Shown: positions 1 to 5,089, counted from the first letter of the stretch. The stretch is DNA of 5,089 bases from Candidatus Vampirococcus lugosii (GCF_018420025.1 NZ_JAEDAM010000073.1:1-5089), one strand, 5' to 3'. A program made the numbers and translations. The notes: a model not told the origin generated them from the sequence alone.

Positions 1-2004
1 TCAATCTCATAAATCCCAATTTACACTCTGTATATCTTTAGGATTAATTCATTGTATTTCAGTATTTAAATCAATTTTTTCTCATGACGAAATGTTATTT
101 TTATTGACTTTCAAATTAGTTCAATGAAAAGAATTATTGTTATTATTGTTATTGTTATTATTGTTATTATTGTTATTGTTATTATTGTTGTTGTTATTAT
201 TGTTGTTATTGTTATTATTGTTGTTATTGTTATTATTGTTGTTATTATTGTTGTTGTTATTATTGTTGTTGTTATTATTGTTGTTATTGTTATTATTGTT
301 GTTATTGTTATTATTGTTGTTATTGTTATTATTGTTGTTATTGTTATTATTGTTGTTATTGTTGTTAATAGATATATTATTATATGATTCTCATATTTTA
401 TTTCAATTTTTATCATAAGATGAAACTTTTAATTTATGATTTCAATCTCTAATTGGACCAAAATTTTTATTAAAATCAAAAACAATTCTTCAATTTGGAT
501 TACTTATATTAGTTTTATATTCATTTCAATCTATTTCCCATATCAAATAATTAGTATTACTAGATCAATTGTAAACACATCTTAATTTTTCATCAATTTC
601 CAAAACTAATTTTTCACATCTAAATTTAATATTATTTCAATTATTTTTATTTTCCTCAAAAACTCTAACCAAAAAATTAGATGAAACATATTTTCAATTT
701 GACATTTTTCATCTTGCTACAACATTATATACTCATTTATTTCTATAAATATGAGATGTATTTGGTCAGTTTCAATAATTACCATCACCAAAATCCCATT
801 CTATAGATTCAAAATTTCAAATTGAATGAGAATCAAAATTAACTTCCAAAGGAGCAAATCATTTTTGATTATCAGTAAAAATATTTAATCAATATATTTT
901 TTCATTATTATCACAAATTTTTGGATCTTGTTTAGGATTATAAACTAAAGGACATATACTATCTGATTCTCTTAATTTTTTAATATTTATATTTCATTTA
1001 TCATCTACAACTCATATACTATTTTTAATTCAATCTCAACTAATATCATCATCACAGACATCACCAAATCAATCTCAATCTATATTATTTTGATTTGGAT
1101 TATAATCATATGGACAATTATCCAAATGATTTTTAACTCAATCTCATGAATAATCATAATCAAATTCACAAGAATTAATTTCAAATAATTTACTTATTTG
1201 TTCCAAAATTTGTTTTCAAGTAGGAAATCAATCCAATGAAAATTCAATAACTTCATCATAAGAAAATATTCAATGTTTTCTCAAAACATTCATTTCTCAA
1301 ACAGGCCGAACTCATTCACCATATTCAAATCAAGAAAATCAACATTCATCAAGATTAAATGTACAATATTTTATATAAGTTAAAAAAGTTTCATTAGTTT
1401 CAGCATTACAATTTCAATGTCAACATCTTTCAAATTCATTATTAATATTTTTTCTATCTTCAATAGATAAAGAATTATATTCAACTGTTCAATTTTGTAA
1501 AGAATCCATCCAAGATTTAATATTTGACCAATTTATTGAATATTCATTATAAACTTTTTTGGATGTAATATTAAATAATGATTGTACAAATTCAGAATTA
1601 GTAATATTATTATATCAACAGAATTTTCATGGACACAAAGGACTTGTATTAGCTGGATAACCATTTATATAATTATTAAATCAAGCATAAGCAATACACC
1701 AATAATTTTCACTTCAATACTCTATATCAGCAAAATTTTTATTTAATTTAGAAGAGAATTCATCAAACCGATTTTTATTTAAAGTTTCAACTATATCAGA
1801 TGGCGGAGTTTTGCAATCATTACAATCAGCAAAATTTAATAATTTAACAAATTCAAAACGACTAACAGTATTTTTATCAAATAAATTATTATAATCATAA
1901 CCTATATTATTTATTTTTTCATAAAAATTTGAATAAATATTTCAAATGAATACAAAAAATAATAATGATATTACAAAAAAAAACTTAATAATGTAATTAT
2001 ACAT
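1..2004 (-). CDS. Large secreted/cell-surface multidomain protein, 3'-partial (continues past left edge): N-terminal signal/anchor, SLH-like segment, thrombospondin type-3-like Ca-binding repeats, PKD domains, poly-Asn linker
   Basis: With TGA=Gly, the minus strand is one unbroken frame from the ATG at 2004-2002 to position 1. An in-frame TAA lies just upstream at 2011-2013. It contains about 43 in-frame TGA and no TAA/TAG. The N-terminus MYNYIIKFFFVISLLFFVFIGNIYSNFY is a hydrophobic signal/anchor. An SLH-like pattern lies at ~1567-1740: NFADIEYGSENYWCIAYAGFNNYINGYP...FCGYNNITNSEFVQSLF. TSP3-like repeats lie at ~901-1170: DYDYSGDGVKNHLDNCPYDYNPNQNNIDGDGFGDVCDDDISGDGIKN...CPLVYNPKQDPKICD. A PKD domain lies at ~650-890: KGFAPLEVNFDSHSIGNFESIEWDFGDGNYGNGPNTSHIYRNKGVYNVVARG. 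A further beta-sandwich-like segment lies at ~367-630, followed by N78 (133-366). A second PKD hallmark, SVNWDLGDG, sits at 1-27. Confidence 0.85.
133..366 (-). repeat. Imperfect trinucleotide minisatellite (ATT/GTT on +, AAT/AAC on -), in frame within the surface-protein CDS and encoding 78 consecutive Asn
   Basis: Every + strand triplet from 133 to 366 is either att or gtt. In the CDS frame each one reads AAT or AAC. A higher-order 18-bp unit, attattgttgttattgtt, recurs about 5 times in tandem across ~277-366, with 15- and 21-bp variants further left. The flanking codons are unique sequence: ...SYNNISI-N78-SFHGTNLK... Confidence 0.95.
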
Positions 2005-2044
2005 ATTTTCTTAATTTTTAATATAAAAAACATATTTATATTAA

Positions 2045-2073
2045 ATAATATAGTTTTTTACTCATTTTGTCAA
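2045..2073 (-). promoter_or_regulatory. Candidate sigma70-type promoter for the surface-protein gene
   Basis: On the minus strand there is a perfect TTGACA (2073-2068), a 17-nt spacer, then TATTAT (2050-2045). This sits about 40 nt upstream of the ATG at 2004. A -10-like hexamer is not informative in DNA this AT-rich. The G/C-containing perfect -35 at canonical spacing is the only real support. Confidence 0.3.
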
Positions 2074-2230
2074 ATCAAAATATTTTTTATTTAAAAAATA
2101 GTTCTTTTAAATAAAATATAAAGCACTAGTTTCAAATTTATAAAATAACACTAAATATATATCTATTATTAGATAATAGATTATATTTATCAATCTTCAA
2201 GAAATAATTTTTTAATATTTTATTTATTTT

Positions 2231-2785
2231 TTAGTTTTTTCATCGAATCCATACTGGTGGGAAATTTGAAATAACTCTTTCTTTCAATTCTAATCACATA
2301 TTTTTATAAACTTTTTTGAAAATAAAAGGCATATATGTAATTGTTCTATATACACTCCCCCATTGAGAATCTGCTTTTAATATATTATTTACAAGTTTTG
2401 TTCTATTTTTTTCAGGAAGTATAGGAAGAGAAGAGATTATAATATCTAATTTAGGAAATTCATATTTTGATAATATATCAAACATATTTTCAGCAGTATT
2501 CTTTTCTACAAAAATATTTGAATAGCTTGAATATCTATTAAATAACATATCAACATAAGAATTTTCTAATTCTACAAGTATTAATTTACTATCAGTTTTC
2601 ATATTTTTTATAATTTCTTGAGTAATAACTCATGTTCAAGGTCATAATTCCATAATATAATTTATATTATCAAAATCTATTCAATTAATAAGTTTTTTTG
2701 ATAAAGTGTTGGAACTAGGAACTAAAGATGCATTTCTTGACGGGTTTTTAAAAAAATTTTTTGCAAACAGAATATTATCTTTCAT
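2231..2785 (-). CDS. Class I SAM-dependent methyltransferase (RrnaAD/COG3963-like small methyltransferase), 184 aa
   Basis: The ATG is at 2785-2783 and the TAA at 2233-2231. The translation begins MKDNILFAKNFFKNPSRNASLVPSSNTLSKKLINGIDFDNINYIMELGPGTGVITQEIIKNMKTDSKLILVELE... and ends ...SSLPILP...NMGLELKERVISNFPPVWIRGKN. SAM-binding motif I, ELGPGTG (2630-2650), has all three glycines written as TGA. The N-terminal (S/A)xVPSS and C-terminal NxPP(A/V)xV motifs are typical of this family. The track ORF 2294-2602 is the internal piece bounded by TGA codons. Confidence 0.8.
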
Positions 2786-2904
2786 CAGAATAATTATTTT
2801 TTGTATATAAAATCAATTTATTATCAAAAAAATATAATCTTTTGAATTATAAATTTAGATAAGATATAATTATTTTAAATAATATTTCAACAAAAAAATA
2901 TAAA

Positions 2905-4552
2905 TTAATTTATAATTCAATCTACAAAAAATCATCAATTATAATTATCTTTTTTAATTTTTCATACTAATTTTGTTGGATTTCTTAATTCTACTAATCA
3001 CAAATCTTCTCACTTTCACCAAAACATAACTGGAAAAGTATTTCATTCCAAACTTGCATATGCTTTCAAATGTCATTTTCATTTTTTACCTACTTTTTCT
3101 ACATCATTAAATATTATATTTTCCATCAAAAAAACTGGTTCACGATTTCATTCTCAAAATGGTGCAAGTTCATTAATTTTAAGTATTTTTTCTTTTTCTA
3201 ATTCATGAGGATATATTTTAGTATCTATTTGTATAGATTTTATCAAATCTTTTTCTGTAATATTATTTTCTCAATATTCATAAAACAATTCAATAACAGT
3301 AGATAAATTTGAGATTTTGACTGTCATTCATCAAGCTTGTTTATGTCATCAATATCTTTCCATATATTTTCATGCATAATTTAACATATCTATTACCGAA
3401 AAATATTCAGGTCAACGAAGTGATGCAACTGCAAATCATTCTTTTTCTTTTATAGATATTATAACTGAAGGTTTATTATATTTTTCTGTAAGTCTTCAAG
3501 CTGTGATACCAACAATTCATTCATGAATATTATTTGATTGTGCTATCAAAACTTTTTTTGGATTTATCTATAATTTTATCTATTTCTTTATATCAATCAT
3601 CTTGAGATTTTTTTCTATCATTATTTATTTTTTCTATATTTTCCAAATGTTTTTTTTGTTTATCTCATGAATATATAAGACAATTTAAACTATCATAAGG
3701 ACTTTGCATTCTTCATCAAGCATTTATTCTGGGTGCAATCATAAATCATATATGAAATGTTTCTATATTATTTTTTATATTCAAAAAACTCAAAAAATTA
3801 CTAATTGATTTTGGAATTAATTTTTTAGTATTTATATAATCTATTCACATTTTTGTCATTAATCTATTTTCTCACAATAGAGGTACACAATCAGCAACGG
3901 TTCATATTGCTACAATTGGCAACAAATAATTTAATGCAATTTTTTTTCTATTAATATCTTTTATATAAATTTTGATTAATGCACTAGCAATTTTGAAAGC
4001 AACTCATACTCAAGCAATTCATTTAAAAGAATAATTTGGACTAATTTGTGGATTTACTACTGCTAAAGTTTTGGGAATTTGATCAAGTGCTTTATGATGA
4101 TCAGTTATTATTAAATCAAGTCATATTTTACTTGCATATTCAGCTTCTTTTATACAAGTAATTCAATTATCTACAGTAATTACCAAATCTGCTCATACAG
4201 ATTTTATTTCATCCAAATGATGTTTTTTCATTCAATATCAATCTGTAAGTCTATTTGGAAGTCTTATTGATATTTTTTTATAATTCAAAAAAATTGTAAA
4301 AAATTTATATAACAAAAAACTTGATGTAATTCAATCTACATCATAATCTCATAAAATCACTATTTTTTCATTATTTTTAATAGCTTTTTGTATTCTATGT
4401 ATTGCTATTTCAAAATCGTTTAATAAATATGGATCTATCCATGAATTTGTAAATGTTGGATTAAGAAAATCATCAATACTTCAATCAATTTTTCTTATTT
4501 TAAGTAATCTTTGTAATAAATCTTCATTTGGATTGTCATATATAATATCCAT
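2905..4552 (-). CDS. recJ: Single-stranded-DNA-specific exonuclease RecJ (DHH/DHHA1 family), interrupted by a 1-nt frameshift in an A7 homopolymer (T7 on +, 3553-3559)
   Basis: The ATG at 4552-4550 is the first start after an in-frame TAG at 4592-4594. The TAA is at 2907-2905. Canonical RecJ motifs appear in order, with TGA at the invariant Gly positions. These are VILGDYDVDGITS (GDYDVDG = 4331-4351), RLTDGYGM, LVITVDNGIT, LIITDHH (DHH = 4094-4102), FKGIAGVGVAFK, IGTVADCVPLLGENR and IAPRINAGGRM. After the frameshift come NIHEGIVGITAGRL, SLRGPEYF, YGGHKQAGGMT (GGH = 3343-3351) and LAPFGEGNREPVFL. The span is 1648 nt (3n+1). The unshifted frame hits TAA at 3530-3532. Confidence 0.9.
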
Positions 4553-4605
4553 AAATAATCTTAATATTATGATAAAATAATAATTTTGTTTCTAATCTTC
4601 TGCAC

Positions 4606-4941
4606 CTAAATTAAAGAAAAAAGTGAATTTTGTTGATTCTGTAGGTAATTTCTTTGATTTCTATTTCGGAAAAATTTTCAATTATGTAATATATATTCAA
4701 CTACTTCTAACCAGGCATACATATAATAATTATTTAGTCTTTCAACTTCACTTCTTAAATGTATTTTCTCTAAATTGTTTGTAAAAAACATTCTTTGTCA
4801 TTTATTATTTTTTATCACCACCAAATAATATTTTCTCTTAGAGTTTGAATTAAATATCTTTACCATTCAATAGTAAAGTTTTCCTCTAATTTTCTTGCCT
4901 CCTTTCAGACTTATCTCTACCTCCTTTTTCAAGCTTCTCAA
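4606..4941 (-). CDS. Small basic hypothetical protein with an Sm/LSm-like N-terminal motif; start codon uncertain
   Basis: With TGA=Gly, the frame is open from 4980 to the TAG at 4608-4606. The in-frame start candidates are TTG at 4941 (111 aa) or ATG at 4866 (86 aa). The sequence is (L/M)RSLKKEVEISLKGGKKIRGKLYYGMVKIFNSNSKRKYYLVVIKNNKGQRMFFTNNLEKIHLRSEVERLNNYYMYAWLEVVEYILHNGKFFRNRNQRNYLQNQQNSLFSLI. The segment RSLxKxVxxxLKGGxxxRGxL resembles the first half of the Sm1 motif of archaeal and bacterial Sm-like proteins. That similarity favours the longer model. The later Sm residues (DxxMN) are not evident. Confidence 0.45.
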
Positions 4942-4997
4942 ATATACTATTTTGCCTCATTTTCATAATATTTTTTTCTTTTACAAAATCAACATCT

Positions 4998-5019
4998 TTT
5001 TCTCGCCCGGGCGGGAAAA
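4998..5019. other. GC-rich inverted repeat / potential stem-loop with a perfect 10-bp core palindrome CGCCCGGGCG
   Basis: The sequence is tttt-ct-cgccc|gggcg-gg-aaaa. The arms 4998-5008 and 5009-5019 are complementary except for one T/G position (5003/5014). The core 5004-5013 is 100% G+C in a window that otherwise has almost no G/C runs. It lies between a possible upstream-gene stop (5069-5071) and the small ORF. Confidence 0.6.
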
Positions 5020-5089
5020 GTAGTACAAAAAGCTAAGATTAATAAATAGATGAGTTAGTTATAATATATTAGCTACCAAATTCACTATA

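What the first reader, a model, noticed from the sequence alone, without database searches (positions are those of the whole stretch)
1..5089. TGA is reassigned from stop to glycine (translation table 25); the whole window is invisible to standard ORF calling
Under the standard code, the only ORFs over 85 aa are repeat artefacts and one fragment. Reading TGA as sense gives four tightly packed co-directional genes covering most of the window. The amino-acid identity can be read from invariant motif positions. In RecJ these are G-DYDVD-G, D-G-Y-G, VDN-G, NA-GG-R and Y-GG-H. In the methyltransferase it is EL-G-P-G-T-G. In the TSP3 repeats it is D-G-D-G-F-G-D. Every bracketed G is a TGA codon. TGG still encodes Trp in the same genes (NSWIDP and FWGKG in recJ, WDFGDG in the surface protein), so this is not the Mycoplasma-type TGA=Trp code. 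Table 25 is established for Gracilibacteria and Absconditabacteria (SR1), which places this fragment in or near those uncultivated CPR lineages. Any pipeline run with table 11 or 4 would mis-annotate it.
Basis: partly seen in the sequence, partly recalled or inferred. Interest (0 to 1): 0.85.

Follow-up and report, generated by a model that had tools for sequence, protein, structure and literature searches.

The report
Known UGA-to-glycine code, Vampirococcus contig

Summary

- **Open reading frames.** Under table 11 the window has no ORF longer than 111 codons. With TGA as sense, four co-directional minus-strand genes cover 88% of it: a surface protein, a SAM methyltransferase, RecJ and a small hypothetical protein.
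- **TGA is glycine, not tryptophan.**
  - A RecJ model scores 454.6 bits with Gly at the 41 TGA sites, against 346.3 with Trp.
  - In solved RecJ structures, 21 of 40 and 19 of 31 TGA columns are Gly and none is Trp.
  - In three orthologues, TGA interchanges with GGN and never with TGG.
- **Source.** The window is the whole 5,089-bp contig of Ca. Vampirococcus lugosii (Absconditabacteria). It is annotated at NCBI with table 25, and Moreira et al. 2021 state UGA=Gly.
- **Table 25 looks incomplete here.** Both CGG codons fall on conserved Trp columns and one CGA falls on a Tyr/Phe column. This fits the CGA/CGG-to-Trp change predicted for Absconditabacteria in 2021.
- **The recJ split is probably an assembly error.** It comes from one extra A in a homopolymer, and an independent assembly has the gene intact.
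- **Not testable from this window.** Whether this genome has tRNA(UCA) and lacks RF2 could not be checked.

The parts
1..2004 (-). Surface protein gene with its start at ATG 2004. Its 3' end runs off the contig. The 668 aa seen contain 43 TGA codons against 7 GGN. The protein has an N-terminal hydrophobic segment, TSP type-3 repeats (about aa 279-305), a PKD domain (about aa 385-429) and the start of a second PKD domain (WDLgDg) at the window edge.
   Evidence: Pfam gives PKD_4 37.0 bits and TSP_3 33.1 bits with Gly, against 19.3 and 24.9 with Trp. There are 15 long homologues of 700-950 aa.
133..366 (-). Run of 78 consecutive Asn codons (39 AAC and 39 AAT) inside the surface protein. It lies in a linker between domains. 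This is the source of the 'repeat artefact' ORFs under table 11.
   Evidence: TRF periods 9, 15 and 18. Homologues have no such run at this point.
2231..2785 (-). Class I SAM-dependent methyltransferase of 184 aa (NCBI MBS8122330). Motif I is ELgPgTg, with all three glycines encoded by TGA.
   Evidence: Exact match to P0121. There are 2,751 homologues at E<=1e-3. The TGA columns 48, 50 and 52 are Gly in 140 of 149.
2905..4552 (-). recJ (single-stranded-DNA exonuclease), 548 aa once one A is removed from the A7 run. It has 41 TGA codons, 2 GGT and 2 TGG. The deposited record annotates it as two proteins, MBS8122332 (340 aa) and MBS8122331 (214 aa).
   Evidence: TIGR00644 scores 454.6 bits over positions 2-537 of 546.
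3553..3559 (-). A7 homopolymer (T7 on the + strand) that breaks the recJ frame. The independent Logan assembly of run SRR13241709 has A6 and an intact 548-aa RecJ.
   Evidence: L006 matches the window with 0 mismatches and 2 single-base homopolymer gaps.
4606..4866 (-). Hypothetical protein of 86 aa (WP_213349774). No family was found. The open frame continues upstream to 4980.
1306..1308 (-). CGG codon (surface protein aa 233) in the conserved motif W-P-V-A-E-L-N. Homologues have W in 8 of 14 and R in 4 of 14. These include table-25 translations, where W can only come from TGG.
1768..1770 (-). CGG codon (surface protein aa 79) at an aromatic column. The 15 homologues have W 8, F 4, R 2 and T 1.
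2243..2245 (-). CGA codon (methyltransferase aa 181) in NFPPVWI[CGA]gKN. In 132 homologues the column is Y 65, F 28 and L 16, with R at 1%.
4666..4668 (-). CGA codon in the hypothetical protein (aa 67). Its meaning could not be tested because there are no homologues.

Best explanation
**What the window is.** It is a complete 5,089-bp contig of Candidatus Vampirococcus lugosii (Absconditabacteria/SR1, 21% G+C). Its four minus-strand genes are translated with UGA as a glycine codon.

**Codon usage.**
- UGA is the main glycine codon: 92 UGA against 10 GGN.
- UGG remains tryptophan.
- Genes end in UAA or UAG.

**Mechanism, inferred for this genome.**
- By analogy with the lineage, a dedicated tRNA-Gly with anticodon UCA would read UGA and release factor 2 would be absent.
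- Extreme AT pressure would have shifted glycine codons from GGN to UGA.

**Additional reassignment.** The rare codons CGG and probably CGA most likely encode tryptophan rather than arginine. This matches the prediction for Absconditabacteria by Shulgina and Eddy (2021).

**The recJ split.** The apparent split is a one-base homopolymer error in the deposited assembly, not a biological feature.
For: **Shown here: ORFs and composition**
- ORFs appear only when TGA is sense, and far beyond chance: 670, 353, 220 and 207 codons against a shuffle maximum of 192.
- Glycine content is 6.85% with TGA=Gly and 0.67% without it. Trp would be 6.92% under table 4.

**Shown here: amino-acid identity of TGA**
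- Ten residues were substituted at the 41 RecJ TGA sites and scored against NCBIfam TIGR00644. Only G passes the cut-off.

| Residue | G | S | A | C | N | D | K | R | W | L |
|---|---|---|---|---|---|---|---|---|---|---|
| Bits | 454.6 | 392.0 | 384.9 | 378.0 | 374.6 | 368.9 | 363.3 | 361.7 | 346.3 | 334.0 |

- The TGA-masked RecJ was aligned to solved RecJ structures. TGA columns are Gly in 21/40 (8y30) and 19/31 (5f54), and never Trp.
- Codon-level alignment to three orthologues: window TGA columns hold TGA 101, GGN 13 and TGG 0. The window's two GGT columns are TGA in all six cases. The TGG columns are TGG in all six.
- In 107 orthologues that are not clearly table-25 translations (66 of them clearly table-4-like), the TGA columns hold 1,917 G and 1,561 W.
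- Methyltransferase motif I columns are Gly in 140 of 149 homologues.

**Shown here: identity of the window**
- There are exact matches to four NCBI V. lugosii proteins, each on a 5,089-bp contig.

**From the literature**
- Moreira et al. 2021 state UGA=Gly for this genome and used Prodigal table 25 (PMC8080830).

**Lineage-level tRNA evidence**
- A 74-75-nt tRNA with anticodon UCA, G1-C2-G3...C70-G71-C72 and U73 is present in 10 of 10 Absconditabacterales and 'Peribacteria' loci checked.

**CGR as Trp**
- The 2 CGG columns are W-dominated and the 1 CGA column is Y/F.
- In 32 AGA/CGT control columns, W is never the commonest residue and averages about 0.01.
- The R residues at Trp columns of an SR1 RecJ orthologue are CGA codons.
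- The reassignment is published for the clade (PMC8629427; PMC13092985).

**Frameshift**
Against: - No tRNA gene and no release-factor gene lies in the window. The decoding machinery of this genome was therefore not seen directly.
- About a quarter of TGA columns are not conserved glycines, for example RecJ aa 24, 227, 320, 372, 427, 503 and 518. The amino-acid assignment rests on the conserved majority.
- The CGR-to-Trp refinement rests on only three testable codons. The CGA column is Tyr/Phe rather than Trp.
- No protein-level data (mass spectrometry) exist for this organism as far as was found.
Confidence: 0.96

Rival explanations
1. TGA encodes tryptophan (table 4, the Mycoplasma or insect-endosymbiont type).
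For: Table 4 opens the same ORFs as table 25. Several public pipelines did translate these genes and their orthologues that way, for example P0311, P0312 and P0001.
Against: - Trp versions score 108 bits lower on TIGR00644 and fall below its cut-off.
- No TGA column aligns to Trp in solved RecJ structures.
- TGA interchanges with GGN and never with TGG.
- The proteins would be 6.9% Trp and 0.7% Gly.
- TGG is kept separately at conserved Trp sites.
Confidence: 0.01
2. The code is standard and the window is non-coding, pseudogenised, or uses selenocysteine or readthrough at TGA.
For: Under table 11 there are no long ORFs.
Against: - There are 92 in-frame TGA codons in four genes with strong full-length homology.
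- TGA falls on invariant catalytic-motif glycines.
- TGA-containing frames are conserved across more than 100 orthologues.
- The number of sites is far too high for selenocysteine.
Confidence: 0.005
3. Plain table 25 is the complete code here. CGG and CGA still mean arginine, and the three CGR codons at aromatic columns are real Trp/Tyr-to-Arg substitutions.
For: - The NCBI record and the genome paper use table 25 without further change.
- Only three codons could be tested.
- The window still uses TGG for 11 Trp codons.
- The closest RecJ orthologues keep TGG at the Trp columns.
Against: - Both CGG codons sit on W-dominated columns and the CGA on a Y/F column. None of 32 AGA/CGT columns has W as its commonest residue.
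- One of these sites is the conserved WPVAELN motif.
- Arg is otherwise encoded by AGA 35 times.
- The W/R mixture is the same signature seen at true TGG columns across the clade.
- It resolves to CGA codons in an SR1 orthologue.
- The reassignment is published for Absconditabacteria.
Confidence: 0.25
4. The recJ frameshift is biological: a pseudogene, or a gene rescued by transcriptional or translational slippage on the A7 run.
For: The deposited contig has A7, and NCBI annotates two separate proteins.
Against: - An independent assembly of public run SRR13241709 is identical over 3,997 nt apart from two homopolymer lengths.
- That assembly has A6 and an intact 548-aa RecJ.
- All 119 orthologues aligned are single proteins of about 550 aa.
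- The genome came from whole-genome-amplified DNA of about 10 cells.
Confidence: 0.1

Closest known systems
[quoted passage not shown] 2013; Rinke et al. 2013)
   Same: - UGA is an extra glycine codon and UGG is kept for Trp.
- Stops are UAA and UAG.
- G+C content is low.
- The lineage is the same, since the window is from an Absconditabacteria genome already annotated with table 25.
   Different: Nothing differs for UGA. The degree is extreme here: UGA is the dominant Gly codon (92 against 10 GGN) at 21% G+C.
CGA/CGG arginine-to-tryptophan reassignment predicted for Absconditabacteria (Shulgina and Eddy 2021, eLife, PMC8629427)
   Same: - CGA and CGG are rare, 4 of 1,489 codons.
- Arginine is mainly AGA.
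- CGG codons fall on conserved Trp columns.
- Orthologues show the same R/W mixture at Trp columns.
   Different: - No statement of this for V. lugosii was found in the papers searched.
- The evidence here is three codons only.
- No tRNA evidence was obtained for this genome.
Genetic code 4 (UGA=Trp) of Mycoplasmatales and reduced endosymbionts
   Same: A UGA stop is reassigned in an AT-rich reduced genome. The same ORFs open.
   Different: The amino acid is Gly, not Trp.

Membership tests
Genetic code 25 (UGA=Gly) | Many in-frame UGA codons inside conserved genes, and ORFs restored when UGA is read as sense | tested here: met
   There are 92 in-frame TGA codons. Frames of 670, 353, 220 and 207 codons compare with a maximum of 192 in 500 shuffles.
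Genetic code 25 (UGA=Gly) | UGA columns correspond to glycine in homologues from standard-code organisms | tested here: met
   - Solved RecJ structures: 21/40 and 19/31 columns are Gly and none is Trp.
- TIGR00644 scores best with Gly, by 63 bits over the next residue.
- Methyltransferase motif I is Gly in 140 of 149 homologues.
Genetic code 25 (UGA=Gly) | UGA is synonymous with GGN among orthologues | tested here: met
   Window TGA columns hold TGA 101, GGN 13 and TGG 0 in three orthologues. The window's GGT columns are TGA in 6 of 6.
Genetic code 25 (UGA=Gly) | UGG still encodes Trp | tested here: met
   RecJ TGG columns are TGG in 6 of 6 orthologue codons. One aligns to W in structure 8y30. 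The PKD WDFGDG Trp is TGG.
Genetic code 25 (UGA=Gly) | The genome encodes tRNA(UCA) with glycine identity elements (G1:C72, C2:G71, G3:C70, U73) | not testable with these tools
   The window has no tRNA. Such a tRNA was found in 10 of 10 related Absconditabacterales and 'Peribacteria' loci.
Genetic code 25 (UGA=Gly) | Release factor 2 (prfB) is absent | not testable with these tools
   This needs the whole genome, and the window holds only four genes. It is reported as a lineage hallmark in the literature.
Genetic code 25 (UGA=Gly) | Genes end at UAA or UAG, never UGA | tested here: met
   The three complete gene ends are TAA twice and TAG once.
Genetic code 25 (UGA=Gly) | Placement in Absconditabacteria or Gracilibacteria | tested here: met
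   Exact protein matches to Ca. Vampirococcus lugosii, phylum Absconditibacteriota. Every one of the best 120 RecJ hits that carries a source name is from this group.
Genetic code 4 (UGA=Trp) | UGA columns correspond to tryptophan | tested here: not met
   None of 71 aligned TGA columns is Trp. The Trp version scores 108 bits below the Gly version.
Absconditabacteria CGA/CGG=Trp code (Shulgina and Eddy 2021) | CGA and CGG codons fall on conserved Trp columns while AGA and CGU stay on Arg | tested here: inconclusive
   - CGG: 2 of 2 columns are W-dominated.
- CGA: 1 column is Tyr/Phe and 1 could not be tested.
- Controls: 32 AGA/CGT columns have a mean W fraction of about 0.01.
- The direction is clear but the sample is three codons.
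Absconditabacteria CGA/CGG=Trp code (Shulgina and Eddy 2021) | tRNA(UCG)/tRNA(CCG) with Trp rather than Arg identity elements | not testable with these tools
   There is no tRNA in the window, and the rest of the genome could not be reached.

The most novel reading that the evidence does not exclude
Ca. Vampirococcus lugosii uses a code with three changes: UGA=Gly plus CGG=Trp and CGA=Trp. No single standard table describes that combination, to my knowledge. The deposited table-25 proteins of this genome would then carry wrong arginines at conserved tryptophan sites. This would extend the Shulgina-Eddy arginine-codon reassignment to the Vampirococcus lineage, which has a described lifestyle and sits at the AT-rich extreme (21% G+C in this window).
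Probability: 0.7. Interest if true: 0.35.

Novelty: already known. Interest (0 to 1): 0.18.

Why it matters
**For UGA=Gly, nothing new is learned.** The reassignment has been an official NCBI table since the 2013 SR1 and Gracilibacteria papers. It is stated in the genome paper for this organism and is used in its GenBank annotation.

**The practical warning is real and visible in public data.** At least 66 of the 119 RecJ orthologues aligned look like table-4 translations, with Trp where Gly belongs. An automated assembly of this organism's own reads was translated the same way.

**The modest added value is twofold.**
1. Even the 'correct' table 25 probably mistranslates the rare CGG and CGA codons of this genome.
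2. The split recJ in the deposited record is an assembly error, not gene decay.

Tried and rejected
**Searches that found nothing useful**
- ARAGORN on the window found no tRNA. Rfam gave only a chance miRNA-like hit at E=0.89.
- The terminator scan found 0 sites. Promoter-like sites were no more frequent than in shuffles, 64 against 58.5 +/- 7.7.
- The supplementary files held for the genome paper have no mention of release factor, tRNA-Gly, UCA, RecJ or prfB.
- The word-indexed homologue search for the methyltransferase found only itself. The exhaustive search was needed.
- Pfam finds nothing convincing for the 86-aa protein or its upstream extension. The best hit was LSM at 13 bits.

**Approaches that did not deliver**
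- Synteny was meant to supply orthologues of the neighbouring genes. The recJ neighbourhoods of P0001, P0002, P0004 and P0028 are not conserved with the window.
- A pattern scan of the genome collection was meant to find the V. lugosii tRNA(UCA).
- The exhaustive search refuses sequences not found exactly in the window, so the surface-protein N-terminus could not be submitted.

**Ideas considered and dropped**
- The G+C-rich inverted repeat at 4997-5018 was tested as a structured RNA or terminator. Its fold is no better than shuffles, z=0.54.
- Programmed -1 slippage at the recJ A AAA AAG-like site was rejected. The required shift is +1, and an independent assembly has A6.
Full report
**1. Observation**

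The window is 5,089 nt with 21.2% G+C.
- Under the bacterial code it has only six ORFs of 50 aa or more. Three overlap a trinucleotide-type repeat at 124-418, and one (2294-2602) is a fragment of a larger gene.
- If only TAA and TAG are stops, the minus strand opens into frames of 670 codons (1-2010, running off the end), 207 (2231-2854), 220 (2905-3567), 353 (3530-4591) and 124 (4606-4980).
- Making TAG sense instead does not do this. Making TAA sense only yields scattered, overlapping frames on both strands.
- In 500 dinucleotide-preserving shuffles, the longest TAA/TAG-free frame averaged 111 codons (sd 20.5) and never exceeded 192.
- In the gene models, TGA occurs 92 times in frame, GGN 10 times and TGG 11 times, out of 1,489 codons.
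- Reading TGA as Gly gives 6.85% glycine. Not doing so gives 0.67%. Reading it as Trp gives 6.92% tryptophan.

One exception is the third glycine of the TSP3 motif NIDgDgFGD, which is GGT.

**2. Which amino acid TGA encodes**

Four independent tests agree on glycine.

(a) *Substitution scan.* All 41 TGA positions of RecJ were replaced by each of ten residues. These included every single-nucleotide neighbour of TGA. Each version was scored against NCBIfam TIGR00644. Only Gly passes the curated cut-off of 396.9.

| Residue | G | S | A | C | N | D | K | R | W | L |
|---|---|---|---|---|---|---|---|---|---|---|
| Bits | 454.6 | 392.0 | 384.9 | 378.0 | 374.6 | 368.9 | 363.3 | 361.7 | 346.3 | 334.0 |

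Pfam behaves the same way for the surface protein.

| Model | Gly | Trp | Masked (X) |
|---|---|---|---|
| PKD_4 | 37.0 | 19.3 | 26.4 |
| TSP_3 | 33.1 | 24.9 | 23.8 |

(b) *Solved structures from standard-code organisms.* With TGA masked as X, so the query cannot bias the result, RecJ aligns to solved structures.
- Entry 8y30 matches at E=1.9e-59 and 5f54 at 3.2e-37.
- TGA columns are Gly in 21 of 40 and 19 of 31 cases. Background glycine is 6.5-9%. None is Trp.

(c) *Codon-level comparison with three orthologues.* Their DNA was fetched as L001-L003.
- Window TGA columns hold TGA 101 times, GGN 13 times and TGG never.
- The two window GGT columns are TGA in all six cases.
- The two TGG columns are TGG in all six.
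- Among the 119 orthologues aligned, 107 are not clearly table-25 translations, and 66 of those are clearly table-4-like. Across these 107, the window's TGA columns hold 1,917 G and 1,561 W. That mixture makes sense only if 'W' is a mistranslated UGA synonymous with GGN.

(d) *Methyltransferase motif I.* In the exhaustive search, the three TGA codons of ELgPgTg align to Gly in 140 of 149 homologues. The remaining 8-9 show the same table-4 'W' artefact.

There is also an internal control. The first PKD domain has WDFGDG with GGT glycines. The second has WDLgDg with TGA.

**3. What the window is**

- The N-terminal RecJ ORF is identical to NCBI protein MBS8122332 (340 aa).
- The C-terminal ORF, with its TTG start, is identical to MBS8122331 (214 aa).
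- The methyltransferase is identical to MBS8122330.
- The small ORF is identical to WP_213349774.
- All four belong to Candidatus Vampirococcus lugosii, and each is recorded on a contig of exactly 5,089 bp. NCBI places the species in phylum Candidatus Absconditibacteriota.

[quoted passage not shown] It also says genes were called with Prodigal table 25 (Moreira et al. 2021, PMC8080830). It is also already published for this exact sequence.

**4. Gene content**

All genes are on the minus strand.
- **4866-4606:** an 86-aa hypothetical protein with no family match.
- **4552-2905:** recJ, with DHH, DHHA1 and RecJ_OB domains and TIGR00644 matched over nearly its full length.
- **2785-2231:** a class I SAM-dependent methyltransferase. 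Pfam alone is below threshold, but 2,751 homologues were found at E<=1e-3.
- **2004-1:** the first 668 aa of a large surface protein.
  - It has a hydrophobic N-terminus, TSP type-3 repeats and PKD domains.
  - Its 15 full-length homologues are 700-950 aa. Those that carry a source name are from the same bacterial group.

**5. How it works**

Steps shown here:
- UGA is decoded as Gly.
- UGG is decoded as Trp.
- Termination is at UAA or UAG.

Steps inferred:
- Decoding is by a dedicated tRNA-Gly(UCA), and RF2 has been lost.
- The window has no tRNA or release-factor gene, and the rest of the genome was out of reach.
- A pattern encoding the glycine identity elements, the UCA anticodon and the T-loop was scanned over one genome per species. 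It found a conserved 74-75-nt tRNA(UCA) in all ten Absconditabacterales and 'Peribacteria' loci checked.
- In eight of those ten loci, tRNA-Tyr and/or tRNA-Ala genes lie beside it.
This is lineage-level support only.
- The literature gives the same picture for the clade.

**6. Refinement: table 25 is probably not the whole code**

- At the two TGG (Trp) columns of RecJ, about 60% of orthologues show 'R' and 40% show 'W'.
- In one SR1 orthologue, those R residues are CGA codons and the gene has no TGG at all.
- This is the CGA/CGG-to-Trp reassignment that Shulgina and Eddy (2021) predicted for Absconditabacteria (PMC8629427). Later work treats it as accepted (PMC13092985).
- The window has 2 CGG, 2 CGA, 3 CGT, 35 AGA and no AGG.

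| Codon and site | Homologue column |
|---|---|
| CGG, surface protein aa 233, motif [W]PVAELN | W 8/14, R 4/14; includes table-25 translations where W must be TGG |
| CGG, surface protein aa 79 | W 8, F 4, R 2, T 1 |
| CGA, methyltransferase aa 181 | Y 65, F 28, L 16; R 1% |
| CGA, small protein aa 67 | no homologues |
| Controls: 32 AGA/CGT columns | mean W fraction about 0.01; W never the top residue |

I rate CGG=Trp, and probably CGA=Trp, at about 0.7 for this genome. No paper in the searched library links Vampirococcus to this change. The deposited proteins carry Arg at these sites.

**7. The recJ frameshift**

- In the window, recJ is split by one extra A in an A7 run (T-run at 3553-3559 on the + strand). 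Removing one A gives a 548-aa protein colinear with all orthologues.
- A Logan assembly of public run SRR13241709 (L006, 3,997 nt) matches the window with no mismatches. The only differences are two single-base homopolymer lengths: A6 at this site, and one fewer A at about 2227, just downstream of the methyltransferase stop codon.
- That assembly encodes the intact 548-aa RecJ.
- The genome came from MDA- and MALBAC-amplified DNA of about ten cells. An amplification or assembly error is the likely cause. The two-protein annotation in GenBank is an artefact.

**8. Comparison, novelty and score**

- The system is a member of the code-25 lineages on every feature that could be tested. It is not code 4.
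- Nothing about UGA=Gly here is new.
- The only modestly new points are the likely CGR=Trp usage in V. lugosii and the annotation errors.
- A specialist would not be surprised. Interest is scored at 0.18.

Noticed in passing
window 1306-1308, 1768-1770 (CGG); 2243-2245, 4666-4668 (CGA): The rare CGG and CGA codons sit on conserved Trp or aromatic columns rather than Arg columns. The genome therefore probably also uses the CGA/CGG=Trp reassignment predicted for Absconditabacteria. The table-25 proteins in GenBank would carry wrong Arg residues at these sites.
   Followed up: yes
window 3553-3559: An A7 homopolymer splits recJ into two annotated proteins (340 aa and 214 aa). An independent assembly of run SRR13241709 has A6 and an intact 548-aa gene.
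   Followed up: yes
window ~2227: This is the second and only other difference from the independent assembly. The window has one extra A in a homopolymer just downstream of the methyltransferase stop codon. It is intergenic.
   Followed up: partly
window 133-366: A run of 78 consecutive Asn codons (exactly 39 AAC and 39 AAT; repeat periods 9, 15 and 18) is inserted in an inter-domain linker of the surface protein. Homologues lack it. The independent assembly stops before reaching it, at about window 621. The tract is longer than the 125-nt reads, so its true length is uncertain.
   Followed up: partly
window 4997-5018: This is an isolated G+C-rich inverted repeat, TTTTCTCGCCC|GGGCGGGAAAA, containing a CCCGGG site. 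It lies in otherwise ~20% G+C sequence, upstream of the small ORF and near the contig end. Its predicted RNA fold is no better than shuffles (z=0.54). It is not terminator-like, and its function is unknown.
   Followed up: partly
window 4897-4905 and 4919-4927 (minus strand): Two AAAGGAGG Shine-Dalgarno-like motifs lie 31 and 53 nt upstream of the annotated ATG (4866) of the 86-aa protein, inside its open upstream frame. An in-frame ATT at 4890-4888 follows the first motif after 7 nt. The real start may therefore be upstream of the annotated one.
   Followed up: no
public protein databases (P0001, P0002, P0311, P0312 and at least 66 of 119 RecJ orthologues): Many database entries for this clade, including an automated assembly of V. 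lugosii's own reads, are table-4 translations with Trp at every UGA. Trp content reaches 3-9% and glycine motifs are corrupted.
   Followed up: partly
L012, L013, L015, L017, L025, L036, L052, L073, L080, L082: In relatives, the tRNA(UCA) with glycine identity elements is highly conserved in sequence. In eight of the ten loci, tRNA-Tyr(GUA) and/or tRNA-Ala(UGC) genes lie beside it. Both flank it in six, and L080 shows neither. ARAGORN labels it tRNA-SeC purely from the anticodon.
   Followed up: partly
L005:10001-11662: An SR1 RecJ orthologue has no TGG codon at all. Both conserved Trp columns are CGA, which suggests a more advanced stage of the Arg-to-Trp reassignment than in the window.
   Followed up: partly
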